A DNA stretch of 62,912 bases, counting the filler, from Kipferlia bialata (taxonomy: Eukaryota): assembly GCA_003568945.1 (NCBI GenBank). It is 6 parts of 6 records of this genome, joined end to end, with 100 filler letters (N's around TTAATTAATTAA, not from the genome) between each part and the next. Parts side by side here need not be neighbours in the genome. Positions count along the whole stretch, not along the records: positions 13,653 to 27,188 come from BDIP01000933.1; 5 more parts are not named here. The stretch is one strand, 5' to 3'. Shown here in pieces: positions 754 to 38,181 of this stretch. The position numbers and the translations under genes were made by a program. Under the pieces are notes generated by a model. That model had not been told where the DNA came from. It searched no databases and was given only the letters and a program-made list of their open reading frames with translations. Position 1 is the first letter of the stretch. The number at the start of each line of letters is the position of its first letter.

Positions 754-770
754 GTACGACACATGTAAAG

Positions 771-806
<36 letters not shown>

Positions 807-884
807 TAGCCATTCTCCTCACGTATTTCGTCCAGTGGACTTCTGTGCACTATGGCTACCAACCTCTCTCCCTCTCACCCTCAG

Positions 885-1615: not shown

Positions 1616-1651
<36 letters not shown>

Positions 1652-4600: not shown

Positions 4601-5968
4601 ATTCTGTAATGAGATCCTTCTCATCCTCTCAGGAATGCCAGCGCCATGGAGTTCCCCTTTGGCATCACAGAGCACGAGTACCTCACATCAATAGGTATAT
4701 AGTATACATACATATTAACATATACTTATATCAATATATTAACCATATATAGTGAAGTGTTCCCCTTTGGCATCACAGAGCACGAGTACCTCACGTCAAT
4801 AGGTATAGAATTGTATTTACTATACAGAGAGATAGTATTCATCTATAGTGAGTGTGTCTCAATGGTTATAGACGAAGGCACTCATGTGATGTATTGTTGT
4901 GTCCTCACCCCAGATGCTGCCAACTTTGAGATGTATCATCATATGTGTCAATTTGGTGCCAATGTTATAGTATATACTCTGCATTCAAGCATGTCCTCAC
5001 CCCAGATGCTGCCAACTTTGAAATGTATGCCCAGTTCACAAACCAGACAGAGTACCTGCAGGTGAGGATATCTAGCATAATTACATTTGTTACTCAACCT
5101 ATGTCTCTGCAATAATAGCAACTCTCCATTAGCAGTATCACATAAGTCTCTACGTAAGGTTTACTTGTCAATACCAGCTCTACATTGGCATGTTTGTCCA
5201 GGAGATCTCAGACATGTTGGTTGATGCCGCAGCTGGTAACTTGGAGTACACATTCGCCATGCACAGGTGGGTTTTACATGGTAGAGGATCAATTACGTGT
5301 ATAGCATCAAGTTGAAACAGTAAGAGATCAAATACAAGTGGTTTACACTCAATATTCCTTGATATGAATCAATGTCTGACCCTCAGTGGCCATGACAGCA
5401 CAATATCGCCCCTGATGGGAGTGCTTCAGGTAAAGGGGGCATCAAGTATCTCTGCAATTACCATCAATATACACAGTGTTGTATTCGTATGTGGATGTAC
5501 TCTCTCCGGATGGGGGGGCATCAAGTATCTCTGCTTTTCACCATCAATATACACAGTGTGGTGGGGGCATTGTCTTCTCTCTTTCCCACCATGTTGATAC
5601 CCAATGATGTATTTGTATGTGGGTGTACTCTCTGACTTCTAGGACTGGGACTACACATGGCCCCCCTATGCGAGTGTCATAGCCTTTGAGCTGTACAGTG
5701 ATGACAGGGGGGAGCAGTACATCAAGAGCAGGTGAGACACCCCATTTTCATTCCCCCTCTCTCTCTCTCCATGTCTCGCTCGCTCGCTCATCCCCACTGT
5801 CATTCTCCTTTACTGTTATATCCTCACTATAGGTACCTGGACCGTGATCTGAGACCCCCCTTCTGCAACGGCCTTGTCTACTGTCCTCTGGACATGTTTG
5901 TGGCTGGACTGGCTGAGTTTGCAGTACCAGGGGTCAACTCTTACTTGGAGAGATGCGTGGCGCTCTGA
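885..5968 (+). CDS. Histidine acid phosphatase (branch 2, lysosomal acid phosphatase-like), multi-exon, 5'-truncated
   Basis: Exons give VVTRHGARS (catalytic RHGxR), GELTCVG, LRSTDIQRTKES, GHDSTI (HD motif) and WPPYASVIAFELY, with a final exon ending ...YCPLDMF...ERCVAL* at 5968. Confidence 0.92.
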
Positions 5969-6309
5969 GGATAGTATGTATCAGGATCTTGCATAATTAG
6001 CATGCTTCCATATTGTGAACTTTACTCTTCCTGATGAAATACAGATGGATTATCCATGAATGAGGAGTATAGCTGTAAGTCCACATAAATATTGCGTTGT
6101 ACCCGTGACAAGAATTACCCACACTGGTGCACCACACAGTGATGTAAATACGAAACCAAGTGTCATCATCAGCGATAACAGAGCGAAATGCGTAAAAGTA
6201 CCCTATCCTCTCCAATACCTTTAGGAATTACAAACTGGGAGTGGGGGTTTGAAAGGCTTCCCAAATAGGGGTGCTGTGGAGTGTGTACTTACGGGGCAAC
6301 ATGGAGACA

Positions 6310-7632
6310 TTCATCTCAGATGAATCATCTGACTGTGTCCTGCGACAAAGTACCTCTTGCTCTAGAGTCTAGAGTCTAGACAGGAGTGAACAAGTGGTTG
6401 GTCGGCGTTGCGTACTCAACGCTTCATTCCCAAGAAGCCTCAATTTGACCGCTTCGAAACGTGCTCCGGTCATATTGATGACTATGCACATAGTCTCTAT
6501 ATCTATGTGGATCTATTGTTGATACATCTACCATGGTAATAAGAAATTCCAGGATTTTCCTAATAGGAATAATTCCTATTTGGAATGCCCTCTGATGATA
6601 GGGATCATCCCTAAGGGAAGTAATGAGTCATTACTAATGACAATAGATCACTCGCTCTTCATCTCAGTGCAGGGCCTGCTGCCCTAGCAGTACCCTTGGG
6701 AGCACATCTCCTCAGGACCTGAGGCTCAGGAAGGGGCACTGAGTGGAGACCCCTGCGGACTCCTGGGGGGTGCGAGTCGCACCGTGCGACGTTACATAGT
6801 GATTATCAAAGCTGGTTCATCTATGATGTATCATCTTGCAACGAGCCACCGCGATGTCCTGAGTCATGGCGGTGTGGATGACGACGCGGTAGGGGTAGGC
6901 CAGCGCGCACTTGAACAGGTGATGGTTAGGGTCGTCAAGGAGGTCAGGGTCGGCGTTCCCCTCGAGGAAACGTGGAAGGATATCGTTGTCATGATTGGTG
7001 GGGGTCATGTCGAAGTGGACACCAGTGATCTCAGGGCCATGGGACATATGTATACCCTTGCACACATCGTAGAGACCCCGGTAGTTGTAGAAGCTCTTGG
7101 CGTCGTGGTGCATCTCATCCCTGTCATCGGCGGGGGTAGAGACCCTCTACTAGAGAGGCCCTTGGCCGTACCCAGCCTTGGCTCTGATCTGACCTGCCCG
7201 GTCTGGCTACCCGGAACCGCACCGCGTCACTGGACACCTTGTTGGCCTAGGGGGTGAAGTGGGACGGCTTGTCGAGCTTGTTGTTCTCGGCGACAACGCC
7301 CATGTTAAGGTCGCTGGTCATGGACAGGACTCCTGTCACAGGAAGTAGAGTACAATTCCGAATCCGCATTGCCGATCATCAGGCCCCTCTGCTTGGACAG
7401 TCCAAGTTGGACTCATACTGTCACAATATGATATTGTGCAAGAAGTATCCCTTCTGTAAGTGTGACACTGTCACAGTGTGACACTTACTAATATCAGTAC
7501 CACTACTTTGCTAGAGTATGAGATATGATACATGGAATTCATATCACATGGACAAAATTGAAGTTCAATTTGCTTTGACGGCAATCACGAGTCGCGATCT
7601 CCGTGAGCGAACTCCCACTGAGTGGGCCACTC
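6310..7632. mobile_element. Cluster of hairpin-type (hAT-like) transposon excision footprints
   Basis: 22-bp motifs of the form 8-mer minus last base + reverse-complement 8-mer + 8-mer minus first base. Exact at 6310, 6360, 6620, 6769 and 7392; one mismatch at 6599, 6710 and 7323. Confidence 0.7.
6817..7321 (-). pseudogene. Degenerate intronless ORF of unknown origin (possible mobile-element remnant)
   Basis: Reads MTSDLNMGVVAENNKLDKPSHFTP*ANKVSS...EGLYPR, then an apparent frameshift into ADDRDEMHHDAKSFYNYRG...ARCKMIHHR*. It is GC-rich and coding-like, lacks microsatellites, and is flanked by excision-footprint-like motifs. Confidence 0.4.
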
Positions 7633-7846
7633 TCAGTAAGGGTCTCTTATCATACAATATAGATTAACAATATATGGAATGAATTACATATACTAACACG
7701 GAACAACCTGGGAGCACCGATGAATTTACTAGCTAAGTACGAAATCCACTAAATAGACATTGACTGTCCTTCCTCACTATAATAATGTACACTTCCACTC
7801 CACAATCTCCCCGCTTCACAACTGAATATCCTGATATGCGTGACCC

Positions 7847-10130
7847 TTAGTCCATCCACGATGGAGACACCTGTTTGTATCCCATACGGTTGGACCCCCT
7901 TCTGGCACCAGTCTTGGGTACCTGAAGCATTAGATATATATATATATATATTTATATATATGTATAATAATGTAGAGGTAGAGAGTTGGAGACAGAATAG
8001 GAGATCGAGCGAGAGAGAGAGAGAGAGAACACTCACCACCAGGGTTCCAGGCACAGCTGCATATCCCTCATAGGGCAGGGGCTGCCTCCTCTCCCTGCCC
8101 CTCTCTCTCTCTCTCTCCCCTCCATTTGTGCCCATATCTGCTGTATCCACACTGGTGCCAGTTGGGTTGAACTGGTCAAGTCCATAGACATCTCCCTCCC
8201 CCTGTCTCTGCTGCATGGCTAGCATCTGCACCAGCTTGTCAGTCTGGGGGTCAGGGTTCAAGCCCCACCATAGTCACTATTTACCATACTGCAATAGTAT
8301 ATATATATATTCACACAGCATACCTCAGTGTCGTATGTCCTGAACGAGAAGGAAATAGTATATATGCATATATATATATATACATGACATATCATGCATT
8401 TGGTCAATACCTCAGTGTCGTATGTCCTGAGCGAGAAGAGCACGTCAAGTACATATATATATATATATATACAAAATCGTAATTCACTATATTTGTATAA
8501 TACTTGTTATATGTATATGTATATACTTGTAATTATACCTCAGTGTCGTATGTCCTGAGCGAGAAGGGCACGTGGCCAAAGGCAGGGAAGTATGCCTTCT
8601 CCCTCTCCCTCTTGCCACTACTGCCGGGGGTGGGGTGCTGGGGCTGACGGTGAGTGGATACATAGTAGACAATACATATGTACTTTCGTACATACACACC
8701 TGCTCATTGACAGTGGGTGTGACAGTCTCTATATCATAATGAACATATACTATTCTACATCATATACACATATGTGTATATACATAATGCATACCTGCTC
8801 ATTGACTGTGGGTGTGACAGTATCAGAAACATAATGAACATACATNNNNNNNNNNNNNNNNNNNNNNNNNNNNNNNNNNNNNNNNNNNNNNNNNNNNNNN
8901 NNNNNNNNNNNNNNNNNNNNNNNNNNNNNNNNNNNNNNNACACCTGCTCATTGACAGTGGGTGTGACAGTCTCTGAAACATAATGAACATACATGTATGT
9001 ATCTCCATCATATACATATATAAAATGCATACCCGCTCATTGACTGTGGGTGTGACAGTCTCCACTGCCCCCTTTCTCCCTCTCCCTCTCTCTCTCTCTC
9101 TCTGTCCCTCTGGGGTAGCCTCGTCCACATACTCTGGGTGGAAGCGTATGGGAGAGGGAGAGGCAGCAGCCACTGGGGCGGGGGAATACGTGGGAACCTA
9201 TGAGTTAGAATACAATCATCTATACGCTAATCTATGGTATTGATTGATTTATATATATATATATAGATGCGTCTTATGCAGTACCTGGGAGTCCTGGTCC
9301 AGTCTGTTCCTGTCAATCACGACACTACCACGGAGCTGTCGCCTAGGGGTGAGAGGCAGAGGTATATGAGAAGTAGTATCAGTGCCAGTAATGACCGCCC
9401 CCTCCCCATGAAGCCCGTAGACAGTGAAACTGTACTGGCTAACTACTGCACACCACTGGTATTCAACTAACCTCCGTATCTCCCTGCCGTGTCTGCTGGG
9501 TGTACCCACAGATGCTCTCCTACCCTTGCCTCTCTCTACCCCTCTCTCTCTCCCCCTGTCCCTACTGCCTCTCAAGGGTGGCAGGGAGGGGGACTCAAGG
9601 TCCATGCCTAAGGGTCAGTATATAGCATATATCACTACGAATATTGTATATAACTAAAGAGAGAGAGAGATTGAGAGAGGGAGAGAGAGAGAGACTCAAG
9701 GTCCATGCCTAAGGGTTAGCATTAAGAGAGAGAGGCAACAAGACGATGATGTATGTATAGAGCATGACAATTTTATGATACTGACATACCCAGGACTGCC
9801 ACGCTGACCCCCTGCTCTGCTGGCCTGAGGTCCCTATGGTATATAAATTCGTATTCATTATATATATACACACACATATCTGTATATATATATAGTGAGT
9901 ATATATATATATATTTACCTAGCACTGCCACGCTGACCCCCTGCTCTGCTGGTCTGAGGTCCATATGATATATATATATATATTTATATATATGTGTGGG
10001 TGTGAATATTCAATGAATAGTGTATATATATACCTAGCACTGCCACGCTGACCCCCTGCTCTGCTGGTCTGAGGTCCCTGTGTCCTCCCACACTACGGCG
10101 CCTGTTACCAGTGTTCCTGGGGTGAGGAAG

Positions 10131-10168
<38 letters not shown>

Positions 10169-10366
10169 TAGAGAGCCTGTGACCAGTGTTCCTGGCGTGA
10201 GGAGAAATGTATATGTATGTATACAACAAATGCATATATTCCTTGGGAGAGAAGATGGTATATATCCATATATAACAATTTAGCCACTGAGAGGCAGTAA
10301 GCCATATTAAAGAGAGCATACCTAGGGGTGGGGCTTGTCTCCCAGAGGCAGAGAGAGCATCCCTAG

Positions 10367-10404
<38 letters not shown>

Positions 10405-13362
10405 GTGTATATATACCTAGGGGTGGGGCTTGTCTCCCAGTTAGCGGCTGGTGTCAGGACCGTGGATCCCCTGTGTCCTCTTCCTCTCTCTCTCTCCCTC
10501 TCCATGTCTCCTCGGGGTGTGAATATGACAGAGGCAGAGGGGGAGAAGGTGTGGAGGGGCTCTAGACGACCGGGGCCTATTGGGTAAGAGGGTAAGAGAG
10601 GGAGAGAGAGAGAGAGAGGCCGAGGGGGAGAAGGTGTGGAGGGGCTCTAGGCGACCGGGGCCTATTGGGGAAGAGGAACAGAGAGAGAGAGACAGAGAGA
10701 GAGATGCACACACACATTAATCACTATTACTAATCAATATAGGGAGGACGTACTCTCCATGCTGTCCATGCCTGCCTCTGCGGGTGTCCTGGATCGGACA
10801 GGGGTGCCTGGGGGTGAGGACATAGGTATATATACATATACACATATACACACACACACACATATATATATACGGTACTGGGGGTGAGGACATTGGTATA
10901 TATATAAATGAACATTAGTATACATATATATAGGTGTGTGTGTGAGAAGTACTCAGACAGGGGTGCCTGGGGGGTGAGGGGGGGGGAGGGGACCAGGTAT
11001 AGTGATATATATACATTACTCCTACCTCTCTGGGGCGTCCCCTACCAACCCAACCCGTATATTTATATACTAAACTATATATGACATAACACTATACATA
11101 ACATATGATTAACAATAACTCGTACCTCTCTGTGGTGTCCCCCTGCCAGCCCACCTCTCTCTGCTGGGTGGGGGGGAGGGGTAGCCAGGGAAGGGGTCAA
11201 CGTGCTCCATGCCTGGGGGTCAGTATCATGTTATGCATGTACACATACAGCATAACATTACAGTATGGCATATGGTATCATTAGGTCCTGCCTGGGGGCC
11301 AATGAATTCATGAATATACACATATTGATGAATATACTTAGCATGCCTAAGGGTCAACTAATACACTCTAACATCCATACATTGTCACATACCTGTTGTG
11401 GCGGGTCTGGGTGGTAGTGGAACACGGAAGTTGGCCCTTTCCAAGGCCTGGGGGTGAAGGTAAATATTACTACTGTAAAGATATCCTGTGGATAATACAT
11501 TTATGTAGGTATCCATACCTGTCTATCCCCCCTGTCTCTGTGTGTGTGTGGTGATGAGGCAGCACGTTTGGGCATATGGTTGAACTGGGGGGTGAGAAGA
11601 GATAACAGAAATAGTAAATGCAATAGTATATATATATATACTATAGACAGATATGCACTCATGTGGTTGAACTGGGGGGTGAGAAGAGAGACCACACACA
11701 TACATATAGCAGTACACCAAAGACCAAAGCAGTCAAAAACACAGATACAGTATATTCACAGTATATTCACAGTATACATAGTATATGCAGTATACCCAGT
11801 ATATACACTACCTGATGGGGTGGGGTGTTGATGCGGCTCGTGGAGGCTGCCTGGGCCTTGAACCTAGAGGTCAAGAGAAGTAAGAATAAGCCATAAGAAG
11901 TCAAGATAGAGAGAGAGATAGAGAGAGAGAGATCATATACCTCCTCATGCGTGGGTTGGGTGCCCTGGGAGGGCCTCCCGAGAGACGTCTTGCTGCCTAA
12001 GAGTTAATAGAAGAGAAGAAGGGGTACTTGATGCAAACGCATAGAATGCTCATTGGTTATACCACACCCGTTTTACCTCCAGTATTGGTTCTCCCCTCGA
12101 TGGTGGGACATCCACATCCAAGGGCACAACACCCTCTCCCTCGGCCTCTCCCTCAGACTCCATACCCTCACTCCTCTCCTGCTGTTCTGGTTCCTGTGGC
12201 ACATCCTCCACACTGTCCTCCTTGGACACCCTGGGTGATTAAGGGTGTAGAGAGAGAGAGAGAGAGTGGGTGTTAATGGTAATAAGGGTGTATAGGGGGA
12301 GAGAGAGATGGGGAGAGGTGGTTGGGGGTCTGGTGAGTAAGAGGTTGAAGGTACACACCTTCCACTTGACCGTCTCTTGGCACTCCTGGGGCGCCTCTTC
12401 TTGGTTCTCTTGGGCCTGTATGTAAGGAATATATGTCTACACGTGTTCAACGATATATCCACTAGCAAGTATACCTGAAAAGACAATTATGGCACTGAGT
12501 CAACTCAGAGTATACATACTATATAGTCTCTGTACATACACAATATACACATATACATACTTTGCGGGTTCCGCTGCCCCTAGTTGCATCACAGAGATGG
12601 GGACATTAGATGCAAATACACTATAAACAAACACTATACATACACTATATATACAGTGTATTATACATACTCTGCTGGCTCTGCTGCCCCTAGTTGCACC
12701 ACGGAGATGGGGACGTCCACTATATATCCACTATAAACACTATATATATACTGTATATATATATAAGTATACACATACTTTGCTGGCTCCGCTGCCCCTA
12801 GTTGCACCACTGAGATGGGCACATCCATGCTGCGCTCCTTCCTCTGCCGCTCTCTGGTCCTAAGGGTTAGAGAAATATAGACATATGTAGAATGAGTATG
12901 TCACAGTCTGCCTCTCCCTTGTCCTACGGGTTAGAGACATCTAGACATATAGAGAGTAAGATGTCACATATATACATTCATGAATGCTGCGCTCCTTCCG
13001 CTGCCTCTCCCTGGTTCTGAGGGTAAGAGAGTGATACTAATATGATGTATTGATACACAACTCTGGTTCTGAGGTTAGAGGATGTAATAACAGAAATCCA
13101 ATGAAACTACGCTTGTCTCTCAGCCTCTCTCTGATTCTGAAGGGGTAAGGATGTGTATGATAAATTGACAATATGTTCCTCCCTGGTTCTGGGGTTAGAG
13201 GAAGCTGCAGTTAAAGAATACAACCTCCAAGTGTATCCCTACCAAACGATACTTACAGAATCAACATCTATCTTTACATAAGAATTTACCAATACACCAT
13301 ACCTAGCCATGTCCCCCTGAGTCACCACCCACCCATCTCCCAGGTCACGCAGCGAGGACTGC
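7847..13362 (-). CDS. Hypothetical low-complexity multi-exon protein, 5'-truncated
   Basis: A series of GC-rich exons with canonical GT and fused BP-AG ends. The last two exons splice in frame: ...YAAVPGTLV|VPKTGARRGSNRMGYKQVSPSWMD*. No recognisable domain. Confidence 0.65.
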
Positions 13363-13552
13363 CTAAGGTGTGAGGATGGTGCCTATGCAATAGATACACA
13401 GTGACATCTCCTAAAATACCACAACACTTCCCATGATCCCCATGAGGGACTGCCTGGGATAAGTGTGAGGATGGTGGCTATGCCAACAGATACACTAAGT
13501 ATTGCACCCCCCCCCCCCCCCCCCCCCCCAACCCCTCCCCCCCCCCCCCACC

Positions 13553-13652
13553 NNNNNNNNNNNNNNNNNNNNNNNNNNNNNNNNNNNNNNNNNNNNTTAA
13601 TTAATTAANNNNNNNNNNNNNNNNNNNNNNNNNNNNNNNNNNNNNNNNNNNN
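13553..13652. other. Artificial contig linker
   Basis: N44-TTAATTAATTAA-N44 (stops in all six frames). Confidence 0.97.
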
Positions 13653-13666
13653 ATATCTAATGCCAG

Positions 13667-16572
13667 GCCCTGATCCTGACCAAGGACTACGATGCAGCAC
13701 ACACTCTGCTACAGGGGGACCCAAGGTACAGAAATGCACATAGTGTATGCATATTTACAGTACTCCAACCCTGCTGGAACTCTGTCTTTTATGAGGTCAT
13801 TGATCTATCTATCCCTCTCTGTCTCTTCCAATACAAAGTGTCTCAATCTTTAGGACCCCTCCCCTCCTAGACCTTCGACTCTCTCTGTGTGTCTCTCTCT
13901 CCCTCTGTCGTCTTCAGTATCTCTCGTGACTAAATATCAGAACTCCCCCCCTGCTGGACCCCTTTGACGAGGCCAGTCTCTGTGTGCTCAGAGGCAGGCT
14001 GCAGCTGCTGAGGTATAATATATATTATTACCTCTTGCATATGTATATCGTGTATATATGTGAAGATCTCTCAGTCTCTCTCTCTCTCACACTCACACGC
14101 ATATACTCACTCGCTCTCTCTCTCTCTCTCTCATGTCTAGGAAGAACCCCGAGCGTGCCGTGTACTGGTATGGCCGTGCCCTGAGACACGAGCCAGGTAA
14201 ATTTGCTACATGATGCCATATAACGCTGTACATATACCTCTATATGTGTATTGTATGTATTTCTATTATTCTCAATATGTCACTCACCCCCCAGGCTGTG
14301 TGAGTGTTACCTTCATACATATACACTCATACATGTAGTATATATGAGTATATTGTTCAATATATCCCTCACCCCCAGGCTGTGTCAGTGCTGCTGTGGA
14401 GCTCAAGAGCAAGGAGCTGATAGGTACATGGGGTGATAGTATAGATTCTGTCACACATACACAGCATTTACATGACCATATCTAACCTAGTAGTATCTCT
14501 ATCTTATACGCAGGCACCACAGATTTATGTATTTATGAATAGATGCCTAAGTATCTCTCTCTGATTCCTAGGCGTACAGACGAGGCAGTACTGGAGAGCT
14601 TCTTCTCCCAATGAGTGTACTATTCATTCATATACATACATATATATATGTGTATACGTTGCTCTATCTAACCCCCAGGCACCACCGACGAGGCAGTGTT
14701 AGAGAGCACCCTGATCAGGGGTCTGCGTCAGAAGAGACAGGAGGAGAGAGAGGCACAGGGAGAGAGAGAGGGAGAGGGAGAGGGAGGAGGAGATGGTGTG
14801 ACAATTGACATGGAGGGAGAGACAGAGGTGGAGAGTGATGCTGACCCAGACCAGCATCTGTACGACCTCTACGGTGCTCTGTTTAACAGGACTGGTGGTA
14901 ACTTACGCGATAGCGCTGTGGATACCACTATACACGATGATGGTGGGCCCCTAGCTGGTCTGCCTGGTAGCAGTCCTGCCTTCTCTCCCCCTCCTGTGCA
15001 TCCCCTGTCACCTAGTGCAACAGGGTATGCTAGGGAGAGTAGGTACATGCCACAGTCACCTGAGGGGGTAGAGGGGGAGAGAGAGAGCGAGAGCGTACTG
15101 GGTGAGAGTGGGTACTCTAGGGACTCTAGGGTGTCTGATGATACTAGTACCTACCCTATGCTGACCCTCTCCGACAGAGGGGACGGAGAGGGAGAGGGAG
15201 AGGGGGAGAGTAGTGGGTATGAGGGTGTGGGGGAGGAGGAGGGGAGAGAGACACTTGTACAGGAGGAGAGTGTCACTAGCTATGGACCACCCCAGACAGG
15301 GGCAGATGCATACGCACAGTTACAAGGTACTATACTAATATATACTTAGTATGGTATATATATACATGTATATATGTAATGTGTGTGCATCCCCCAGACA
15401 GGGGCAGATGCATACGCTCAGCTGCAAGGTATCAGTCCCATTTCCTATTTCTCTCATTGTATGTGTATGTTCACATATACATCTCCATCTCACCCCCAGC
15501 CCTGTGGCACCGGGGAGATGTGGATGGCACACTGGCACTGGGGGCAGAGGTATAGTCTGTGCTTTGTATCAGTATGGTTACCTACAGGGTATATATGTTC
15601 GTGCTCATACTTACATACGTATATGTACTACTCTTTGTATATACATACTGTTATATGTTGCTCTATAAGGTGTGACGTGGATGGGACACTGGCACTGGGG
15701 GCAGAGGTAAGAGAAATATATTGTTAATGTGTGTGTGCATTATTACGTAATATAGCATATCTTCCCCCCAGGTACTTGTATCCATGCCCCAAGCTCTTGT
15801 ATGTATAAATATACATATATATATATACATTCCCTATATATGAATTATTAATTCCCTCATGTTTAGGTCCTTGTGTCCATGCCCCATGCCCTTTTGTGCA
15901 TGGTTATATGTACATTCACTGTATATGTATATTTACTGTATTTGTTGTTACTTAACCCCCAGGTACTTGTGTCCATGCCCCATGCCCTGATGTGCGTGCC
16001 CATAGTGGCAGCTGCCATGGTGGAGAGGTATTGGTAGACACATTAACTTACTATATATATATATATTGGCCATATTTCACAAATACATGTGTACATGAGG
16101 GTGTGCCCATAGTGGCAGAATTGTGGAGAGGTATGGATATACACATACTTGTGTATACCATGTATACAATATGTATTCATATATATATGTAACACTAGGA
16201 AGCGTAAGTCTGAGCTCTACCTCTGTGCATCCAGACCCAGAAGACTCTCTCTCTCTCTCTCTCTCTCTCTTCCCCTGTATATATACGTAACACTAGGAAG
16301 CGTAAGTCTGAGCTCTATCTCTGTGCATCCAGACTCAGAAGACTGGCACCTGACCATGGGTGCACATGGCTGGCCACAGGACTATATTACCTTCTATCAG
16401 GTATTGTATGTATTAATAATCATATAGGTACACCCTTTGACCACGGGTGCACATGGCTGGCAACAGGGCTGTACTATCTGTTATCAGGTAATCTCTTACC
16501 CCCAGAGAAGTGGCCCAAGTGCTCTGCCCACTGTCACAGGCCTCTCTCTCTCTCTTGCTCTCTCTCCCTATC

Positions 16573-16612
<40 letters not shown>

Positions 16613-18747
16613 TATCAGTATACTCTGGTACCTATATGCATATTCTTACCCTCAGAAGAGTGGGCCAAGTGCTCTGCCCACTGCCACCGGGCACTGGAGC
16701 TAGAGCCCACACTAGTCCATGCCAGACTGGCACTGGCCAGGGTGGCTAGTGTTAGAACACAGGTATAGTACATAGATATACACATACTATAATGGATAAA
16801 TATGTAAACATATATATACACTGGCTAATACCAGTCCGACTAGTATTGGAACCGAGGTATGATTGCCACTTCATTCTCTCTGGCTCTCTCTCTCTACCTC
16901 ACCCAACAAGAGCATGCTATGTCCTTACATCTCTTCATATACTTGTAGTGACTTAGAGGTATAACCTATCATTACTCTTACATCATCACGAGCATGCCGC
17001 GTGCATCTGACGCATCTCTCTCTCTCTATGTCTCTCTCCCTATATTTGTATATATACCTCACCCCAGCACGAGCATGCCATTGTCCACCTGAGACGTCTC
17101 TCTCTCTCTATGTCTCTCTCCCTATATTTGTATATATACCTTACATCAGCACGAGCATGCCATTGTGCATCTGAGGCATGCCCTGGCTATATCACAGGGC
17201 AGCATAGAGATATGCATTGCAGCTTGTAAGGTACATAGAAGTGTGTGCAGTTGACCCTAAGTGTACATATATACCTCTTACCCTCAGGAGTACCTGTCCC
17301 TTGACAACAAGGCTGCAGATGCACTCGAGATGGCACTCATGGCGAGGTTAGTCTCTCTCCATCCATCCCTTCTTTTTCCTATTTCTCTCTTACATATCAT
17401 ATATGTATACGTATATGATTATACATTTGTATCTCACCCCCAGGGACATCTCCCCCCACACCCCTGTGGTCTGGGGCCTCACCCTCTGTGCAGCATACTA
17501 CAGGAACAGGTGTGTGTGCATTTTCTTATACGTCTACTCAATATGTGTCCCAAGGATGTACGACGATGCCATCAGCAAGTACTGCTTATAGATACTCTCA
17601 TGTTCACATGGTATTGTAGTTATCAGTGTGACATATGCTTAGATATATCTCACCCCTAGGATGTACGACGATGCCATCAGGGCAGCAGACTATGTCACCA
17701 ATGCCAACTTCTTTTTACATACAATACTATATGTAATAGAGATATGCCTCTATCTCACTGTGTAGGATGTACGATGATGCCATCAGTGCAGCAGATGCAT
17801 GCATACAGAGGGTGACAGGGGGGGAGACAATACCAGGTACTATAGTATAAATACACACACGTATAAATTATATATACATAGTGGCTTCGATGGGAGTCGA
17901 ACCCACACCCTCTCACTCCCAGGCCGTGACACGTCTGTGCTGTGTGAGGCCTATGCCGCCAAGGGCCACTGTCTGATGCACATGCACAAGTACCAGAGTG
18001 CAGAGGGGTGTTATGAGCAGGTACACTACTCACACGCATCCTAATGCCATATTCTTAGATGGTATATGTGACAATGTATACCTTACCGCAGGCCCTGTCC
18101 CTGGGATGTGGCAGGGAGGCCCAGGTTGGACTGGGCATGGTGTACCACAGGATGGGGAGGTGTGTATACATGTATGGTATATATACTTTTGTATAGTGAG
18201 GGATGCGTGAAGTACTGACCCCAGATACTCCGAGGCCTGCCAGGTGTACAATGCTGCCCTGTCTGAGAAGGGCAGCCCAGACCTGGTGGCACTGCTACAG
18301 GTATTATATACTATGCATACATTATGTATATATAGTATATGATATGATGCCCTGTCTGAGAAGGGCAGCCCTGACCTCGTGGCATTGCTGCAGGTATAGT
18401 ATACTATGCATATATTATGTATATATAGTTATATAGTATATGGTATGATGCCCTGTCTGAGAAGGGCAGCCCAGACCTGGTGGCGCTATTGCAGGTATCC
18501 AGACATTATGTATATATATAGTATATCTTATAGTATATGATATGCTGCCCTGTCTGAGAAGGGCAGTCCAGACCTCGTGGCACTGTTACAGGTATGTATA
18601 TGTGTCTTGTAATACATATGTTGAAGGTGTCTCTTTATAGTAGTTTGGCAGTATATAATGTATTAATATGAATTAATATGAATAATTGACCCTTAGGATG
18701 CTCTGGTCAGGTCCCTCCGCACCCAGACCAAGTCAATACCCACTTAA
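13667..18747 (+). CDS. CDC16: Anaphase-promoting complex subunit 6 (CDC16)-like TPR protein, 5'-truncated
   Basis: The spliced product has ASLCVLRGRLQLLRKNPERAVYWYGRALRHEPGCVSA and CVPIVAAAMVERKRKSELYLCASRLRRLAPDHGCTWLATGLYYLL. These match Cdc16 segments I recall (SSICLLRGK..., CLPVHIGTLVELNKANELFYLSHKLVDLYPSNPVSWFAVGCYYL). Further TPRs follow, with a stop at 18747. Confidence 0.78.
17879..17923 (-). pseudogene. tRNA 3'-half (Pro-like), antisense to and coincident with an intron acceptor
   Basis: The minus strand reads CC-TGG-GA-GTGAG-AGGGT-GTGGG-TTCGACT-CCCAT-CGAAGCC-A-CTA, which is the canonical spacing of tRNA positions 32-73. No 5' half is present. Confidence 0.65.
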
Positions 18748-18956
18748 CGATGTTAATAGATAGTTAACTGTCTTATGCTGATACTGTGCTTTGTTAGTAG
18801 GCATGTGATTTGCCTGGTGTATTTCTGTGTGTAAGTGACACTGTCATGGATCATTAGCTGACCCCTCCCTGCAAGAAACAAACGTATGAAACGTGTGCAG
18901 TTCGGTCGTAGTTCCAACCTTGGCTCTTTCAAAGCACTGTATTCAGCGTAGTGTCC

Positions 18957-19601
18957 ATGCCCTGCTGTTCTGTGTGCAGTCACACCTGGGAGAACAGCTA
19001 TGTCACTGAGTGTCTGATGTGTGAGTGGAGGGAGAGGGAGGAGAGGGAGAGGGAGGCCAAGAGGATAGAGGCTGACAAGGAGAGAGCAAGGCGCAGTGCA
19101 GCAGAGTACAGCCTGATCAGACCGCACCTGGCACCACTGTTCAAGGATGTGGAGTTAGTGAGGTATACATTTTACAACTATGTATGATATTTGTATGAGT
19201 GTATATGTGTTTGTATTTGTATGATACTGACCCCCAGGCAGGATGTTGCCAGCATCAGGCATGTGTCAGTGGAGATTGAGAGGGAGAGGGAGGAGAGGCA
19301 GCGGGAGAGAGAGAGCAAGGAGGAGGCAAGAGTGGAGAGGGAGAGAGAGAGACTGGCAGTTGAGGAGCAGCTGCAAAGGCTGGTACCTTCTCTCTCTCTC
19401 TCTGACTCTGCCTCTACCCCTCTTGTTGCCAGTCTGACTGTGGTGGTGGATGAACTACTGCAGTTGAGGGAGAGAGAGGCAGAGAGGCAGATGGAGAGAG
19501 ACAAGGAGAAGGAGAGAGAGGCTGGGAAGGAGAGAGAGAGACTGCTCTTCCTCGACTTCAATCCCGATGCCCTTGCCTCTCTGCAGGCACTCATAGAGCA
19601 G
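18957..19601 (+). CDS. N-terminal CxxC...CxxC zinc-ribbon plus charged coiled-coil exons (RecQ N-terminus or separate gene)
   Basis: MPCCSVCSHTWENSYVTECLMCE followed by ER-rich helices in two exons. It ends in a phase-0 donor before the poly-C run at 19675-19753. Confidence 0.6.
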
Positions 19602-19674
19602 GTATATGACATATATATATATATATACATATAAATATATATATATATACAACCCCTGCCCTTGTCTCTCTACC

Positions 19675-19721
<47 letters not shown>

Positions 19722-19870
19722 AGGGAAAAACCCCCCCCCCCCCCCCCCCCCCCTCACAATCCACCTTTCGAGTAGGATCACAATTCCGCATGTTTCCCTC
19801 AAGTACATTCTTTTGCCCACTTCTGTATTTCCAGTCTCCATGTATACCTGTGTATACTTCTAATGCCCAG

Positions 19871-24484
<4,614 letters not shown>

Positions 24485-24890
24485 CACGAGCTCCCAATAG
24501 ACTCTCTCCAACACTGTTTCGTAGGAGGTACTATGTTATAGGAACTGTTATGTTGTAGGTGTCCCATCTGGATGCGCCTGTCGAGATGATATATCCTTAA
24601 TCACATTCAGTTCACTGAGACAATTTTGCTGTAACTACCACTACTGTAACGACGCGTTGGTGCAATGAAACACACCATCGCGGACTCGGCTCTACTTGAG
24701 AACTATATATCTATTGGTCCTTTCTCTATGCTGTCTCAGTCCCCTTCCACACACCCTGGAGTGTGCACTCAGTATGTATGACCCATGTACTCACACGGGT
24801 CTTACATACTGGCAGTGCACACCCCAACATGTGTGGCGAGGGACTGAGCTAAATAGTAGAGATACTCTCCACCTCTCCACTAGTGATATC

Positions 24891-27067
24891 CTACATCTGC
24901 CCTCCCCAGATACCACTCGCCACCCTCTCTGCCTCCTCTCTCTCCTCCTCTCTCCTCCTTGCTAGGTACTGGGGGTAGCTCACCTTGGGATTAGTAAAAC
25001 TACTTTAGTAATACTAGTTTAGTATCATATTTATGCTACACTGCCTAGGTAGCTCACCTTAGGCCTCCACACAGTCACAACCTTGCCTGGGGTGGAGTGG
25101 TTCCTGCCCCTCACGAACACGCCGACGAAGTGGGGGAAGATGATCTGCAGTGAGGATTAGTTGCGATGAAATAGTAACCACGCAGGGTAGTATTGCTCAG
25201 TACTCCATATTTACTTATTGTAAGCGTCAGCATCGTATTGAATACAGTGATACACCAATGTATGTATATGTATATATATGAGTGAGTGTATACCTTGTAG
25301 GCATCGGCATCTGCTGGCACACTCACTGGAACAAAGGACCCACACATCCTTGGAGTGAGAATGTTGTACATAGTGGTCATTGTGTGTAGCTCTATATAGT
25401 GACTGTATACTGTCACTCCCACCCCGTCTCTGTGCTAATATGATGTAGTATGTGTCATGATAGAGAACAATACACCGCTACTATTAGTATGGTGCTGCCA
25501 TATATACAGTATATATGATATACAGTATATATGATATATACTGTCCCACCTCTGAGCATCGACTGTGCTGGAGTGTACAAACTGAGTGATGAGGGGGGTC
25601 ACGTCTCTCTCATCAGCTCTCTGCTCTCCTGGGCTCAGTGACAGATTGAGTAGTATTATGAATTATATGAATATAGATATACGGTGCTATATACACCCAC
25701 CCATGCAGTGTCATCCTGAGCCACTTCTTGGAGCACTCAATGTCGTCACGGGACATGACGGAGACGTCCTGGGGGTGGGTCTCCATGTATGGAGCCTAGC
25801 TGGTCCTAGTACTCGAATGAAGCAACAGACATGGAGAGAGAGATGTTGCATTGTGGCAATAGAGTGAGAAAACCAAGTACACACTCTCCAACTTGAGTAA
25901 GTACGTACCTCAGTATCGAGCATGTACACGTCCTTGAGGTAGGACAGCTGGGTGGCACAGAGAACCCTTGCCCTGGTTCTCTGGAGTTAGGAGAATGTGT
26001 ATGGAATGATATATAAGGGTGATTCTTATTCATCTCAAGTTGACGAGGTCAAGCATGGCTACAGTATATTGCTACGGAATGCCTGTAATGTTCACACAAT
26101 AGCCCCTTAATATATAGTATATACGGGTAACCGCCATAACTTACCTCCTTTATCCGCTCCCACTGTGGCCTGTAGGTCTCTTCTTTGGTCTATTGTTAGA
26201 TTAGATTAGTGCACTTAAGAGGGACATATAGTATATGTCACATATACTCTAACGTCGAGTTAGTAACGGAACCCTACACATACCTTGGCGCTCTCCATCG
26301 CACCCTGCAGCCTCTCCCTGAGTGTGGTGGCATCCGCACAGACGGCATCATTCTTCTTCTGGAGTTAAAGTGAGATGTATTTGATGACGTCGCTATGTAC
26401 AGCTGTTGTGTTGAGACTCTACTTGTGGACTCGAAGTTAGAGTAATCCATGTATATACTACTATGAGAGCTGTCACTCAGGTGTCGGTGTTTAGACACAT
26501 ACACATATCCACCAAGTACGATATCCCACCTCCAGAAACCGCATGAAAGCATCTACCACTCTAAGGCCATTAGTGGGGAGAGGACCTGAAGTTTGGTGTA
26601 ATATGATAAAGGTCCAGGGAAAGCCTAGAACTCATATTCAGACAAAGCTGTCGTGCACTCATGCACTCATTACATTGTGTGTAGTATGGGTAGTAGTCAA
26701 TGGAGAGTTTACAATGTGTGCAGCTACTGTATACTCAGTGTGCAATGTGTACCTTGGCAGATGAGGTGTGCTGGTATGGTGTCGTTTGAGGGGTCGGAGA
26801 CTACCTAGTGTGAGGTATATAGAGTACTACAATGACTAGATTTCATTCACTTCTACATATAATAAGTGATACACCTGTAGCAACTATTACTGTGGTATCA
26901 CATACCACAGGAAACATTGAGTGGCAATGAATTTCCCATTACCAACCAATAGTTATGATACACAAGTAGAAACATACCCTGATTGTGCAGTGGATGGCAA
27001 TGGAAGACATCTCACAGATCTTCACGCCCTTCTTCCCAATCAGATGGCAGACCAGAGACTGGGGGAC
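24891..27067 (-). CDS. Multi-exon protein with a KH-domain-like GxxG motif, 5'-truncated
   Basis: Exon 26978-27067 reads VPQSLVCHLIGKKGVKICEM (KH-like V-P-x-x-x-V-x-x-x-I-G-K-x-G). Further small exons follow; the probable last exon ends ...GIWGGQM*. Confidence 0.5.
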
Positions 27068-27188
27068 CTGCAATGAGAAGACTCTTCTCATTGAGAAGAG
27101 ACTAGCAACATAGGGAAAGTGATATATGTGCCGGGAAGTTAAAGAAGGGGGGGGGGGGGGGGGGGGGGTCGGGTCCCTTTGGCGGAGG

Positions 27189-27288
27189 NNNNNNNNNNNN
27201 NNNNNNNNNNNNNNNNNNNNNNNNNNNNNNNNTTAATTAATTAANNNNNNNNNNNNNNNNNNNNNNNNNNNNNNNNNNNNNNNNNNNN
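27189..27288. other. Artificial contig linker
   Basis: N44-TTAATTAATTAA-N44. Confidence 0.97.
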
Positions 27289-27338
<50 letters not shown>

Positions 27339-27905
27339 ACGCACCTTCAGTACACCTACACCCACCAACACACATATAGATCCTATTATAGTCAGTCTAG
27401 GAACAGCAGATGGAGTACAATTACTCAGTGAGCACTGCATAGGACCTACCTCGCTGTCTATCACACTATTCTCCAGGTCCGCCATCTCCAGCTAGGCCCC
27501 AGCGCACCAGCAGATACTGGGTTCACTAGTGGTGCTTAAGGATTCCAGTTGACACCCTGTTAAGGCCTATCGTATAGGTGGCAGGGTGTCCCAATATGAT
27601 GGAGGGATAGAGTAGGTACCTCTTCTCAATACATCAAAAATGAAAAAATAGACAAAGGGGTTAGCAGAGATATCTCTTGACTATGAAGAGGATACAGATC
27701 TACACTACACTCCACACAACAACTTACGATACAATTCTATTGGACAACCGCTTGGGCATATGCTAACTCGACAGTATCTGAGTATATGTACTAGATACTC
27801 TGCACACAAGGGTCTAGATGGTAACAAAAGGGTCCAATCCTATGGCTAGAGGTACTCTCTTTCTCTCTCTCTCTCTATTTCTCTCTCACTCTCTATCTCA
27901 TTCTC

Positions 27906-28838
27906 TCATGGTTCTAGGTACTCAGTCTCACCCCAACACGTGATGAGACCTAGTGTTAGTTGCAAAGTCTCTCACATCCAATACACAACCAGTACGGTGA
28001 GAAAAAAAAAAAAAAAAAAAAGGAAACTGCTCGTGTACTTATATATATATACATACATATACACTGTGCTATACCTGTCTCATCCACCACCGATGACACA
28101 TCTACCATCACATACGTATATAGTAGAGCATACATCATAGACAATAGTATAGTATCTATATACAGTTGTATATAAGGTACCTGTCTCATCCACCACCGAT
28201 GACACATCTGCCCCACCTACATACATGCATATATACCATAGTATTTATAGAATCTTTATATACGATACTATACTATGGTACCATACCTGTCTCATCGACC
28301 ACCGATGACACATCTGCCACATACATACATATATACCATAGCATATACATCATAGACAATAGTATAGTATCTATATACAGTTGTATATATAGTACCTGTC
28401 TCATCCACCACCGATGACACATCTGCCCACATACATATATACCATAGTATTTATAGAATCCTTATATACAATACTATACAATACAGTACCATACCTGTCT
28501 CATCCACCACCGATGACACATCTGCCCACATACATACATATGTACCTTAGTATTTATAGAATCTATATTTACCATACTATTAGTACAATATACCACACCT
28601 GTCTCATCCACCACCGATGACACGTCTGCCCCAGCTGCTATCATGACAACACGGCCCAGGCCTAGGGTTAGAGTACGTATATACAGACATATTCATAATT
28701 ACACATAAATGTATAGAGAGAGAGAGAATAACAGTTGTCCCAGCTGCTATCATGACAACACGGCCCAGACCTAGGGTTAGAGTATGTACAGAGAAGCATA
28801 TACAGACACACATATATAGATAAAAATATATCTGTGTG

Positions 28839-28869
<31 letters not shown>

Positions 28870-31085
28870 TTGTCCCAGCTGCTATCATGACAACACGGCC
28901 CCATGCCTGGTAGCGAGAGAGAGATAGAAGCATGCATATGTATATATATATATATAAACATACCTAACACTGGCTCCATGTATGTGTTCCCCTGTGCACT
29001 CCATGTCCATGCTACTCTCCCTCACTCTCTCTCTCTCTCTCTCTATATATATACAAATACTATATATACACATACCTAGCACTGGTTCCATATAGGTATT
29101 GCCCTGTGCACTCCATGTCCATGCTAGACATACTCTCTCTCTCTATGTATATACATATATGTCACTATATACTATCTCTCTCTCTCTCTCTCTACATAAA
29201 CATATACATGTACCTAGCACTGGTTCCATATAGGTATTGCCCTGTGCACTCCATGTCCATGCTATGCCATGGGAGTCGAGGCAGATGCCGTGGGTACTGT
29301 GGTTAGGTTACACACATATCCATACATCTATATACACCGAGAGAGAGAGTACTATACACTGTGTGTGTATGCCATGGGAGTCGAGGCAGATGCCGTGGGT
29401 GCTATGGTGAGTGTATATATACAGTGTATACTGTATATAATGAATACAATGAATATACCCACCTCCCCGCTGTTATCTCTGTGTATCAATATCTACATAT
29501 ATACACAATATACATATATATTATAATATACCAACTATACCTCCCAGCTGCTATCTCTGTGATTGGCAGGGCAGGGGTCTCTCCCTCTATCCCACACTCA
29601 GATACACTAGGGGGAAAGGGTATCCTTTCAACCGGAATGTCCAACTCCTCTAACTCGCGTAACCCTCCTATTTCGCGTATCGCTGAGTGGTACAGACAAT
29701 TGTGTTCCATACCACCGTCACAGGGTAGCATAATGATATAGGAACCAAAGGCTGGCATAAGAGAGGACAGTATGTGGGTACATATCTACATACATGCAAA
29801 GAGAGAGAGAGAGAGTATATATATATGGAGAGAGTATGTGTTGTGAACATTAACAGTTAGACACCTGATATCCTTCCAATGGGTACAATCTCCTCTCCCT
29901 CTGTCACAAGAAGGGCGTGGGACTCTCTCTCTCCCTCTAGACCCTTAATATGCACTGATCCGTCGTCCAACAGATACACCAGGTATCCATCACCTAGAAG
30001 GTCAGTATCATACAAATCAGTATCTATAGTATTGTAATCAGGCGTCAGTAATAGCACTCGACAATAGATAGAACCAGAATAGAGGAAATAACAGAATATA
30101 GACGCTACCAGGCCTAGTGGTTAGTATCACAATTACAATTATATAATTATAAATATAATATATAATAATATATATAATATATAATAATATATAATAATAA
30201 TTATTATAGCAGAGAGTGCGGAACATGACTATCACACATACTGTACCAATACACTTACAATATATATACTAACCTGCAGCAATATCCTTAACCACTTCAG
30301 TGAGGCTCAGATCCTCAAACGGTGAACGTTCCCGTACTGTGTCTACCGGCGTATGGTCCTCTCTCTCTCTCTCTCTGGTCCAGTATACTCTGCCACTGGC
30401 ACACAGGACAGCAGTATAACTCTCTCCCTCTCCGTCTCTCCCTGTCTCTGCCACTCTCCCTGTCACTCTGTCTCCCTCTCCCTCTCTCCCTATCTCTGTC
30501 TCTCTCCCTGTCTCTATATGAGGAAGGGTGCCAGAGACAGCCTTGACCACATCCTCACCAGGGGTGAGAAGCGATACTGTATATATACCTATACTATATA
30601 TGTATGTATACTATTGTTCTATACACACCTGGAATCTCGGTGTATGTCTCCTCTGTCTCCATGGCGTCTCTCTCTCTCTCCCTCTCCAACTCTACCCTCA
30701 CTCGCTCCCTCTCCCTCTCTGCCTCCCTTGGGTCGATGTTGGAGTGGATATGCATGGCCTAGGGGTAAGAGAGAGATCGTACACATATATATATTTACAT
30801 GGGAGAGAGAATACATCTGAGTGTCAAATAGTATGTATATATATATAGAGAGAGAGAGAGAGAATACATCTGGAGACGATGTTGGAGGGTAGTAGCATGG
30901 CCCTGGGGTAACAGAGCAGAGAGAGAAATTGAGGATGAGAGAGATAGAGAGAGTGAGGTTGTCGAAGTGGATCTGCACGCCATACGGGTATGAGAACGGA
31001 GAGAGAGAGGTAGATTATGTATGAGAGAGTATGAGAGTATGTATGAGAGAGAGGGGTTGTTGGAATGGATCTAGAGGCCATGGGA
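27906..31085 (-). CDS. RCC1/BLIP-II-like beta-propeller protein, 5'-truncated at gap
   Basis: Repeated blade signatures VKDIAAG, ITEIAAG, VVMIAAG followed by LCASGRVY, LLDDGSVH, CLDSHGIAWTW and VDETGLITCWG. Stop after ...ETEYLEP*. Confidence 0.65.
28071..28651. repeat. Donor-echo tandem array, 6 copies, ~105-nt period
   Basis: The core acctgtctcatccaccaccgatgacacatct recurs at ~28072, 28179, 28284, 28393, 28492 and in the real exon at ~28598, with two alternating spacer types. Confidence 0.95.
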
Positions 31086-31483
31086 ACATGGGGTAGAGTA
31101 TACTCATATATTTGTTGTGTTTGGAGTAAAATAATGTATGTGTCAGGGAGGGGGGGGGGGGGGGGGGGGCCCGGGGGGGTAATGGGGNNNNNNNNNNNNN
31201 NNNNNNNNNNNNNNNNNNNNNNNNNNNNNNNNNNNNNNNNNNNNNNNNNNNNNNNNNNNNNNNNNNNNNNNNNNNNNNNNNNNNNNNNNNNNNNNNNNNN
31301 NNNNNNNNNNNNNNNNNNNNNNNNNNNNNNNNNNNNNNNNNNNNNNNNNNNNNNNNNNNNNNNNNNNNNNNNNNNNNNNNNNNNNNNNNNNACCCCCGGG
31401 GGGGGGCTTTCCCCCCTTCCCCCCCCCCCCCCCCACACACACACCTCCACTCTTCCCATTTCTCCCTCTCTTGTCTCACCCAG

Positions 31484-38149: not shown

Positions 38150-38181
<32 letters not shown>

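What the first reader, a model, noticed from the sequence alone, without database searches (positions are those of the whole stretch)
18256..18593. Intronic half-exon echoes in CDC16 differ only synonymously (11 of 11 changes)
The real exon end is GCC CTG TCT GAG AAG GGC AGC CCA GAC CTG GTG GCA CTG CTA CAG|gt. Echoes at 18349, 18450 and 18547 end ...CCT GAC CTC GTG GCA TTG CTG CAG, ...CCA GAC CTG GTG GCG CTA TTG CAG and ...AGT CCA GAC CTC GTG GCA CTG TTA CAG. All encode ALSEKGSPDLVALLQ, yet the echoes have no acceptor and cannot be ordinary alternative exons. Neutral decay would give mostly non-synonymous changes. Inference, three options: (a) echoes are regularly recombined into the live exon and so purged, acting as silent cassettes; (b) they are fresh captures of divergent alleles by unequal exchange; (c) they are used at RNA level through a homology-guided junction.
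Basis: partly seen in the sequence, partly recalled or inferred. Interest (0 to 1): 0.92.

Follow-up and report, generated by a model that had tools for sequence, protein, structure and literature searches.

The report
Introns archive recombined exon-end alleles
In the free-living protist Kipferlia bialata about three in ten splice junctions examined have intronic copies of the neighbouring exon end that differ from the working exon mostly at synonymous sites, likely because they are former working exon ends exchanged with diverged alleles by recombination, which would make its introns a record of hidden sex.

Summary
The gene is the CDC16/APC6-like KIPB_004386 of Kipferlia bialata. They have strong donors and no acceptor, and the one RNA-type contig splices past them with live codons only. 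Across 148 curated exons I found 130 echoes at 76 of 262 internal junctions, always donor-end downstream or acceptor-end upstream. Echo-versus-live dN/dS is 0.17-0.19 (bootstrap 0.13-0.23), against 0.47-0.51 for a neutral echo. Echoes still decay: 24 of 130 carry stops, frameshifts or lost splice dinucleotides. Exonic parts are often near-identical while their intron flanks are unrelated, and arrays are mosaic. In toy simulations clonal exchange gave dN/dS 0.56-0.67; inter-allelic exchange gave 0.15-0.38 and matched the data. Best reading: old junction-spanning duplications whose exon part is continually refreshed from diverged live alleles. No second strain was available, so the alleles themselves are unseen.

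The parts
13667..18747 (+). CDC16/APC6-like TPR gene, 17 modelled exons (KIPB_004386, Kipferlia bialata); 5' end cut by an assembly gap
   Evidence: my exon model contains P0001 letter for letter; best natural PDB matches CDC16/Cut9, E 2e-11 to 4e-11; 7 introns listed as joints of an RNA-type contig
18225..18300 (+). live exon; its last 50 nt (18251-18300) are the echoed part; donor GT at 18301
   Evidence: RNA-type contig of X2 covers it with 0 other letters and joins it to 18697
18301..18696 (+). 396-nt GT-AG intron holding three donor echoes
   Evidence: joint
18344..18393 (+). echo 1 (4 synonymous, 1 non-synonymous change), followed by GT
18445..18494 (+). echo 2 (4 synonymous, 1 non-synonymous change), followed by GT
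18542..18591 (+). echo 3 (3 synonymous changes), followed by GT; not covered by the DNA layout
18301..18343 (+). TA-rich spacer after the live donor; alike to the next two spacers (18394-18444, 18495-18541), not to the rest of the intron (18592-18696)
16438..16487 (+). donor echo of CDC16 exon 16297-16400: 8 synonymous, 0 non-synonymous changes in 50 nt
   Evidence: loose end of the RNA-type contig shows the live version
17555..17689 (+). two acceptor-side echoes of exon 17766-17836, skipped by the 256-nt intron
53831..54242 (-). five acceptor-side echoes of an SLC12-family exon (53785-53693); includes a TCC>AGT serine switch; 5 of 6 informative site pairs incompatible
55..62867 (.). window-wide set: 130 echoes in 82 families, on both strands and in all six assembly pieces

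Best explanation
The echoes are intronic copies of an exon end with its splice site, spaced about 100 nt apart, and are likely former working exon ends that recombination between diverged alleles keeps moving into and out of the live position. Shown: the half-exon anatomy, strict orientation, skipping in one RNA-type contig of CDC16, low dN/dS with ongoing decay, unrelated intron flanks, mosaic arrays. Inferred steps: (1) a rare junction-spanning duplication or microhomology-joined repair makes the first echo; (2) it is harmless because the spliceosome takes the first donor and the last acceptor, the shortest acceptor-donor pair; copies in the other orientation would break the gene and are absent; (3) when diverged homologs meet in one cell (sex, parasex or a heterozygous phase), break repair can pair only in the exon part, the one stretch that purifying selection keeps alignable; misaligned strand annealing then installs the homolog's exon end as live and demotes the old one, or overwrites an echo; (4) echo codons thus spent most of their history under selection and decay neutrally only since the last exchange. 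No function of the echoes is needed. The model needs synonymous diversity among alleles of roughly 0.15-0.25.
For: dN/dS 0.17-0.19 over 130 echoes, bootstrap 0.13-0.23; 0.17-0.19 without the focal family. Controls: shifted frames 2.22 and 1.47; neutral echo plus constrained live through the same detection filter 0.47-0.51. Variants private to one echo: pN/pS 0.27-0.31, bootstrap 0.16-0.45, where neutral decay needs about 1. Inner echo differing while a more distal echo matches the live copy: 0.21, 0.13-0.39. Synonymous differences are directionless (113 GC>AT vs 100 AT>GC) while non-synonymous ones lean to AT in the echo (73 vs 39; Fisher p 0.045). dN/dS rises with distance from the splice site (0.07-0.13 at 6-18 nt, 0.29-0.31 beyond 33 nt) and with rank (0.14-0.15 nearest, 0.32-0.35 third or later). 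Spacer versus start of the remaining intron: 2 of 113 above the null's 95th percentile; only 7 of 30 echoes with at most 4% exonic difference have an alignable flank. Four-gamete failures: 13 of 23 informative pairs, 5 of 6 in the focal array. Simulated inter-allelic demotion gave pS 0.245, pN 0.067, near 0.11, far 0.38. Fornicates lack NHEJ and Rad51A and keep two Dmc1 paralogs (PMC8516963, section 8 read); Dmc1 stabilises mismatched joints (PMC6719624, abstract).
Against: No second allele was seen: no other letters in X1 contigs over the stretch, no relative in two metagenome scans, no close relative or paralog among proteins. The diversity required equals the highest on record (0.13-0.20 in Schizophyllum, PMC4576712 abstract). 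Sex has not been observed in metamonads (PMC8516963 passages). The shared stretch is only about 32 nt (median), short for frequent recombination. The simulations are toys (N=200, one echo, strong selection), and their rate was picked from four settings. The first 6 nt from the splice site have dN/dS 0.18-0.20, breaking the gradient, and the far-end rise may be partly alignment overrun. Only 3 of 6 informative families fail the four-gamete test, and recurrent change at synonymous sites could mimic it. Echo density differs strongly between neighbouring genes (p 4.5e-6), unexplained. Frames outside CDC16 come from my own gene models.
Confidence: 0.6

Rival explanations
1. One-off hybrid or allopolyploid past: echoes are ends captured from a diverged sub-genome or sister species during homeologous repair, after which the second copy was lost. 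It is the same molecular route, without a standing hyperdiverse sexual population.
For: Accounts for low dN/dS as well; all 9 variable sites of the focal array are biallelic; the strain shows no second allele now.
Against: Per-echo synonymous distance is spread from 0 to above 0.5 without a clear second mode; 6 triallelic sites in 4 of 13 large families; mosaics need several exchanges within about 25 nt.
Confidence: 0.14
2. Echoes are used at RNA level in some transcripts (homology-guided junction or another unknown route), so selection acts on them directly, with DNA exchange supplying the homogenisation.
For: 106 intact echoes have pN/pS 0.16 against 0.43 for 24 disabled ones; echo donors are as strong as live ones in 33 of 69 cases; conservative multi-base synonymous switches such as TCC>AGT and TTA>CTG; no snRNA candidates were found in K. 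bialata (PMC6679479 passage).
Against: The RNA-type contig has 0 other letters in the listed CDC16 exons, including three that have echoes; 2 stops, 12 frameshifting indels and 15 lost GT/AG; the intact-disabled contrast is also what age alone predicts; no such mechanism is known for spliceosomal introns (my knowledge).
Confidence: 0.1
3. Clonal silent cassettes: echoes recombine into the live exon on the same or sister chromosome and are purged when they damage it.
For: Explains refreshed exonic parts with old flanks without needing other alleles.
Against: Seven clonal settings gave dN/dS 0.56-0.67; rates high enough for selection erase the synonymous distance (pS 0.06). An earlier run gave 0.33-0.41 in two settings, but it had a synonymous site fixed at the slowest-exchanging position.
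Confidence: 0.06
4. Serial snapshots: echoes are neutral copies made at different times of a live exon whose synonymous sites change several times faster than the echoes mutate.
For: Live-private differences are 14 synonymous to 3 non-synonymous; distal echoes are more decayed.
Against: Inner echoes differ synonymously where a more distal echo matches the live copy (53 vs 33; pN/pS 0.21); intron flanks change faster, not slower; four-gamete failures.
Confidence: 0.04
5. Relics of mutually exclusive duplicated exons that later lost one half.
For: Would give synonymous-biased divergence.
Against: Only 7 of 69 donor echoes have an acceptor-like site in their unit and 2 of 61 acceptor echoes a good donor (background 9%); near-identical echoes with unrelated flanks.
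Confidence: 0.03
6. Assembly artefact: haplotypes of a mixed culture stacked in tandem.
For: Short-read assembly (PMC5874029, section 7); spacing near 100 nt (median 104); X1 may be the same sample; echo 3 not covered.
Against: A separately assembled contig bridges live-echo1-echo2 with 0 differences at full depth, and the shared stretch has double depth; stops, frameshifts and lost splice sites in echoes; strict orientation 31 and 30 vs 0, 0 and 0 of 110.
Confidence: 0.02

Closest known systems
Human F7 intron 7 VNTR, a 37-bp minisatellite whose first unit spans the exon-intron boundary (PMC1557585; abstract and outline read)
   Same: Tandem copies of an exon end with its donor lie in the intron; they are intact but silent because the most upstream donor is chosen.
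   Different: One locus there, about 29% of junctions here, with a mirror class at acceptors. Units here share only the exonic part, and their differences are mostly synonymous.
Inter-allelic conversion at human minisatellites (MS32, MS205, CEB1), proposed to run through synthesis-dependent strand annealing (PMC2599865; passages read)
   Same: Repeat arrays reshaped by non-reciprocal transfer between alleles, giving mosaics and length change.
   Different: Here one unit is a working exon, so selection filters what passes through it; homology is about 32 nt islands between unrelated spacers. The mechanism is inferred, not observed.
Intron gain by tandem duplication of exonic AG/GT sites (PMC2891723, passages read; PMC3265369, search listing only)
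   Same: Small duplications at splice signals that are tolerated by splicing.
   Different: No new intron arises; an existing intron grows by about 108 nt per echo.
Silent cassettes of antigenic variation (VSG, pilin, vls; recalled, no call)
   Same: Unexpressed partial gene copies that keep coding sense through exchange with an expressed site.
   Different: Housekeeping genes, no amino-acid diversification, cassettes inside the gene's own introns; clonal exchange did not reproduce the signal.
Tandem mutually exclusive exons (Dscam type; recalled, no call)
   Same: Neighbouring copies with synonymous-biased divergence.
   Different: Echoes have only one splice site and are half exons.

Membership tests
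Mutually exclusive duplicated exons | each copy has its own acceptor and donor | tested here: not met
   focal echoes: best acceptor 0.5-1.2 vs 5.7; 7 of 69 donor echoes and 2 of 61 acceptor echoes have a partner-like site
Mutually exclusive duplicated exons | alternative copies appear in mRNA | tested here: inconclusive
   one RNA-type contig, live copies only; contigs drop rare forms
Splice-junction-spanning VNTR (F7 IVS7 type) | first unit spans the exon-intron boundary and later units carry intact pseudo-donors | tested here: met
   GT kept in 65 of 69 donor echoes; focal echo donors score above the live one
Splice-junction-spanning VNTR (F7 IVS7 type) | most upstream donor is the one used | tested here: met
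   joint 18300 to 18697 in the RNA-type contig; shown for CDC16 only
Splice-junction-spanning VNTR (F7 IVS7 type) | units alike over their whole length | tested here: not met
   spacer vs rest of intron 2 of 113; spacer vs spacer 10 and 22 of 55; the focal array is among the partly alike ones
Splice-junction-spanning VNTR (F7 IVS7 type) | copy number varies between individuals | not testable with these tools
   no second strain found
Inter-allelic minisatellite conversion | mosaic units from more than one allele | tested here: inconclusive
   13 of 23 informative site pairs incompatible, in 3 of 6 families; donor alleles unseen
Inter-allelic minisatellite conversion | transfer from the homolog seen in progeny or gametes | not testable with these tools
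   needs crosses or population genomes
Antigenic-variation silent cassettes | cassettes diversify the protein | tested here: not met
   48 of 130 echoes have no amino-acid change; dN/dS 0.18
Antigenic-variation silent cassettes | exchange into the expressed site within a clone | not testable with these tools
   no variant live exon among X1 contigs, but raw reads were not available
Nested or recursive splicing | echo donors and acceptors pair off inside an intron | tested here: not met
   counts unequal in 43 of 55 echo-bearing introns; the focal intron has 3 donors and 0 acceptor echoes
CDC16/APC6 | TPR superhelix protein most similar to CDC16/Cut9 | tested here: met
   TPR families; CDC16/Cut9 best natural matches; no tree built

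The most novel reading that the evidence does not exclude
Kipferlia runs a dedicated, splice-junction-anchored recombination system: in a lineage with only Dmc1-type recombinases and no NHEJ, exon ends are routinely swapped between live and silent positions at tens of thousands of junctions, and the echoes are kept as working cassettes (DNA templates or occasional RNA parts) rather than as debris.
Probability: 0.13. Interest if true: 0.95.

Novelty: new variant of a known kind. Interest (0 to 1): 0.82.

Why it matters
If the best reading holds, one apparently homozygous genome carries a large archive of other alleles in its introns. There are 120 echoes in 131 internal introns here; with 124,912 introns (PMC5874029) that would be of the order of 10^5 echoes if the window is typical. 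It would make an open question testable from existing data: whether free-living metamonads recombine between diverged genomes, which has not been observed (PMC8516963), and how diverse they are. It also shows that low dN/dS can mark sequence with no present function. It gives a new route to intron growth: about 108 nt per echo, roughly 13 of 29 kb of intron DNA examined. And it shows that a reduced spliceosome (87 of 174 proteins, PMC6679479 passages) ignores strong decoy donors and acceptors about 100 nt away.

Tried and rejected
No whole genome was held, so 'genome-wide' here means six assembly pieces of the window. No RNA holder is on record; X2 is only guessed to be RNA, though its contig is spliced at GT-AG introns. 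Only one read layout was obtained, 16625-19010. Metagenome scans with the CDC16 protein and with a RhoGAP exon found no relative. Protein searches found only KIPB_004386 and remote TPR proteins. The search of earlier findings returned nothing. The first simulation had a positional bias and was redone; both are reported. Nested splicing was rejected. An early impression that changes cluster next to the splice site, with an identical far end, holds for the focal array and two others but not window-wide: pS is roughly flat at 0.21-0.33. Constant unit length as the mark of a fixed repair tract was not supported (echo and spacer length r = -0.10). Fresh templated insertion of exon end plus intron start from one allele is disfavoured as the main route: far-end breakpoints are shared within most multi-echo families, and identical exon parts have unrelated flanks. 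TA density of introns did not predict echo density (p 0.41); AT content did weakly (p 0.018, 11 genes). tRNA-like stretches next to acceptors were not confirmed by ARAGORN or Rfam. Of 147 raw alignments, 17 were dropped before counting: more than 6 nt from the splice site, score under 28, or low-complexity.

Full report
Source and gene. A read-through stretch of the gene found one protein among the 7,987 candidates scored: KIPB_004386 of Kipferlia bialata, on a 13,536-nt contig. My exon model of 13667-18747 contains that protein letter for letter. The window is six assembly pieces joined by five linkers. No whole genome was held.

The observation. The four copies read ALSEKGSPDLVALLQ followed by GT, with 11 synonymous differences from the live copy. 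They are 8 distinct variants. The homology runs 5 nt further, where two echoes have Asp for Ala, giving 11 of 13 pairwise and 8 of 9 distinct; p = 3e-4 to 0.02 by the null used. The echoes have no acceptor, their donors score higher than the live donor, and using them would read into a stop. An RNA-type contig of run X2 joins 18300 to 18697 and shows 0 other letters in the eight exon pieces listed. It also skips the two acceptor-side echoes before 17766. DNA contigs of X1 bridge live, echo 1 and echo 2 without a difference, at double depth on the shared stretch; echo 3 is not covered, X1 may be the window's source, and no second allele is seen.

The pattern is general. A codon-blind repeat scan gave 224 near-tandem pairs. 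I trained a small gene finder on the window and curated 148 exons in 17 gene pieces, all with open frames and matching phases. Only CDC16 is checked by RNA and by a public protein. Pfam supports frames in the SLC12, DHHC, RhoGAP and DNase II genes and weakly in the RecQ-like gene; the labels acid phosphatase, MFS and RecQ are recalled from motifs. Aligning exon ends to their flanking introns gave 147 hits, of which 130 in 82 families were kept; 12 of 2,184 random exon-intron pairs reach the score used. Echoes sit at 41 of 131 internal donors and 35 of 131 internal acceptors. Orientation is strict: exon end downstream 31, exon start upstream 30, the two other arrangements and reverse complements 0 of 110 exons. 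Median echo length is 32 nt and spacing 104 nt. Each echo adds about 108 nt to its intron (r 0.91).

Selection signature. Live versus echo: 268.5 synonymous and 161.5 non-synonymous differences, pS 0.23-0.25, pN 0.05, dN/dS 0.17-0.19, bootstrap over families 0.13-0.23; echo versus echo 0.26-0.28. The right null is about 0.5 (neutral echo, constrained live), confirmed through the same filter at 0.47-0.51; shifted frames give 2.22 and 1.47. Variants private to one echo give 0.27-0.31, and inner echoes that differ where a more distal echo matches the live copy give 0.21. Neither neutral decay nor serial snapshots explains this. The echoes are not protected, however: 2 stops, 12 frameshifting indels, 4 lost GT and 11 lost AG, 24 disabled of 130. 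Non-synonymous changes lean toward AT in the echo while synonymous ones do not, as expected if the first arise in the echo and the second arose in live exons.

Traces of exchange. A simple tandem duplication copies the intron flank too. Yet spacers match the start of the remaining intron in 2 of 113 comparisons, no better than chance, while spacers of one family match each other in 10 and 22 of 55. Echoes identical to the live exon over 24-31 nt often have unrelated flanks. So the junctions are old and the exonic part is refreshed. Far-end breakpoints are shared within most multi-echo families, so arrays grow from existing units. In the focal array 5 of 6 informative site pairs fail the four-gamete test; overall 13 of 23, in 3 of 6 informative families.

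Which exchange. In forward simulations of one live and one echo copy, seven clonal settings gave dN/dS 0.56-0.67. Four inter-allelic settings gave 0.15-0.38, and one gave pS 0.245, pN 0.067, with 0.11 near the splice site and 0.38 at the far end, close to the observed 0.07-0.13 and 0.29-0.35. A first, positionally biased run gave clonal values as low as 0.33. The reason is simple (inference): in a clone only one copy of a site is live at a time, so about half of the history separating two copies is unselected; two copies can both be live only on different homologs. The data imply that about four fifths or more of that history was under selection.

Mechanism proposed. Rare junction-spanning duplications are tolerated when the shortest acceptor-donor pair remains the true exon, as for the silent pseudo-donors of human F7 intron 7 (PMC1557585, abstract). 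Repair between diverged homologs can pair only where selection has kept homology, the exon and its splice signal. Misaligned annealing installs the homolog's end and demotes the old one, or overwrites an echo, much as inter-allelic transfer reshapes human minisatellites (PMC2599865, passages). Fornicates lack NHEJ and Rad51A and have two Dmc1 paralogs (PMC8516963, passages and section 8), and Dmc1 tolerates mismatches (PMC6719624, abstract); the link to echoes is my inference. The weak points are that no second allele was found, that the diversity needed equals the record (PMC4576712, abstract), that about 32 nt is short for recombination, and that echo density differs between neighbouring genes without explanation (0 of 18 to 30 of 60 junctions, p 4.5e-6).

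Novelty. In the main text of the genome paper the words duplicat-, exon, tandem, polymorphism, heterozyg- and ploid- occur 0 times (PMC5874029, passages and section 7). Ten full-text searches were run; those on Kipferlia with intron, recombination or tandem exon, and on partial exon duplication, duplicated splice sites and intronic exon fragments under purifying selection, listed no paper whose title or abstract start describes this pattern. I saw listings only for most (20 of 33 and 25 of 60 in the two largest), and the library lacks most subscription papers. PMC12584245 (passages) concerns whole-gene tandem arrays. The parts are known, but their genome-scale combination, with mirror donor and acceptor classes and an inherited coding signature, appears undescribed. 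Verdict: real; new variant of a known kind; interest 0.82; best explanation 0.6.

Noticed in passing
window 17880-17922, 62205-62245, 62318-62360, 62867-62905: Three different introns (one also echoed) end in a stretch whose opposite strand looks like the T-arm half of a tRNA, placed so that it supplies the branch site and acceptor. ARAGORN and Rfam did not call a tRNA; the likeness is recalled.
   Followed up: partly
window 13553-13652, 27189-27288, 40812-40911, 54434-54533, 59658-59757: Five identical N-flanked linkers: the window is six unlinked assembly pieces, three of them about 13.5 kb.
   Followed up: yes
window 24900-27070, 31484-33181, 33761-38131: Three genes with 0, 1 and 0 echoes in 52 junctions, next to echo-rich genes on the same pieces.
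   Followed up: partly
whole window: Branch site almost fused to the acceptor: 3-7 nt between the branch A and AG, mostly 4-6, like the fused branch and acceptor described for diplomonad introns (PMC6679479 passages).
   Followed up: partly
window 14679-15326, 19238-19601, 30629-30758, 55087-55970: Coding exons rich in GA dinucleotide runs giving Glu-Arg and Glu-Gly tracts, including a roughly 200-residue insert in CDC16.
   Followed up: no
window 5435-5560 and 61470-61730: Near-tandem repeats that do not map to a modelled exon end; possibly echoes of unmodelled or non-coding exons.
   Followed up: no
window 60270-60730: An exon with two acceptor echoes and one donor echo was left out of the counts because two frames are open.
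   Followed up: no
multi-echo families, whole window: Spacers are more alike at the junction side (22 of 55) than at the splice-site side (10 of 55); not explained by the model, pairs are not independent.
   Followed up: partly
window 38232-39390: 12-nt tandem repeat array broken by a 992-nt assembly gap.
   Followed up: no
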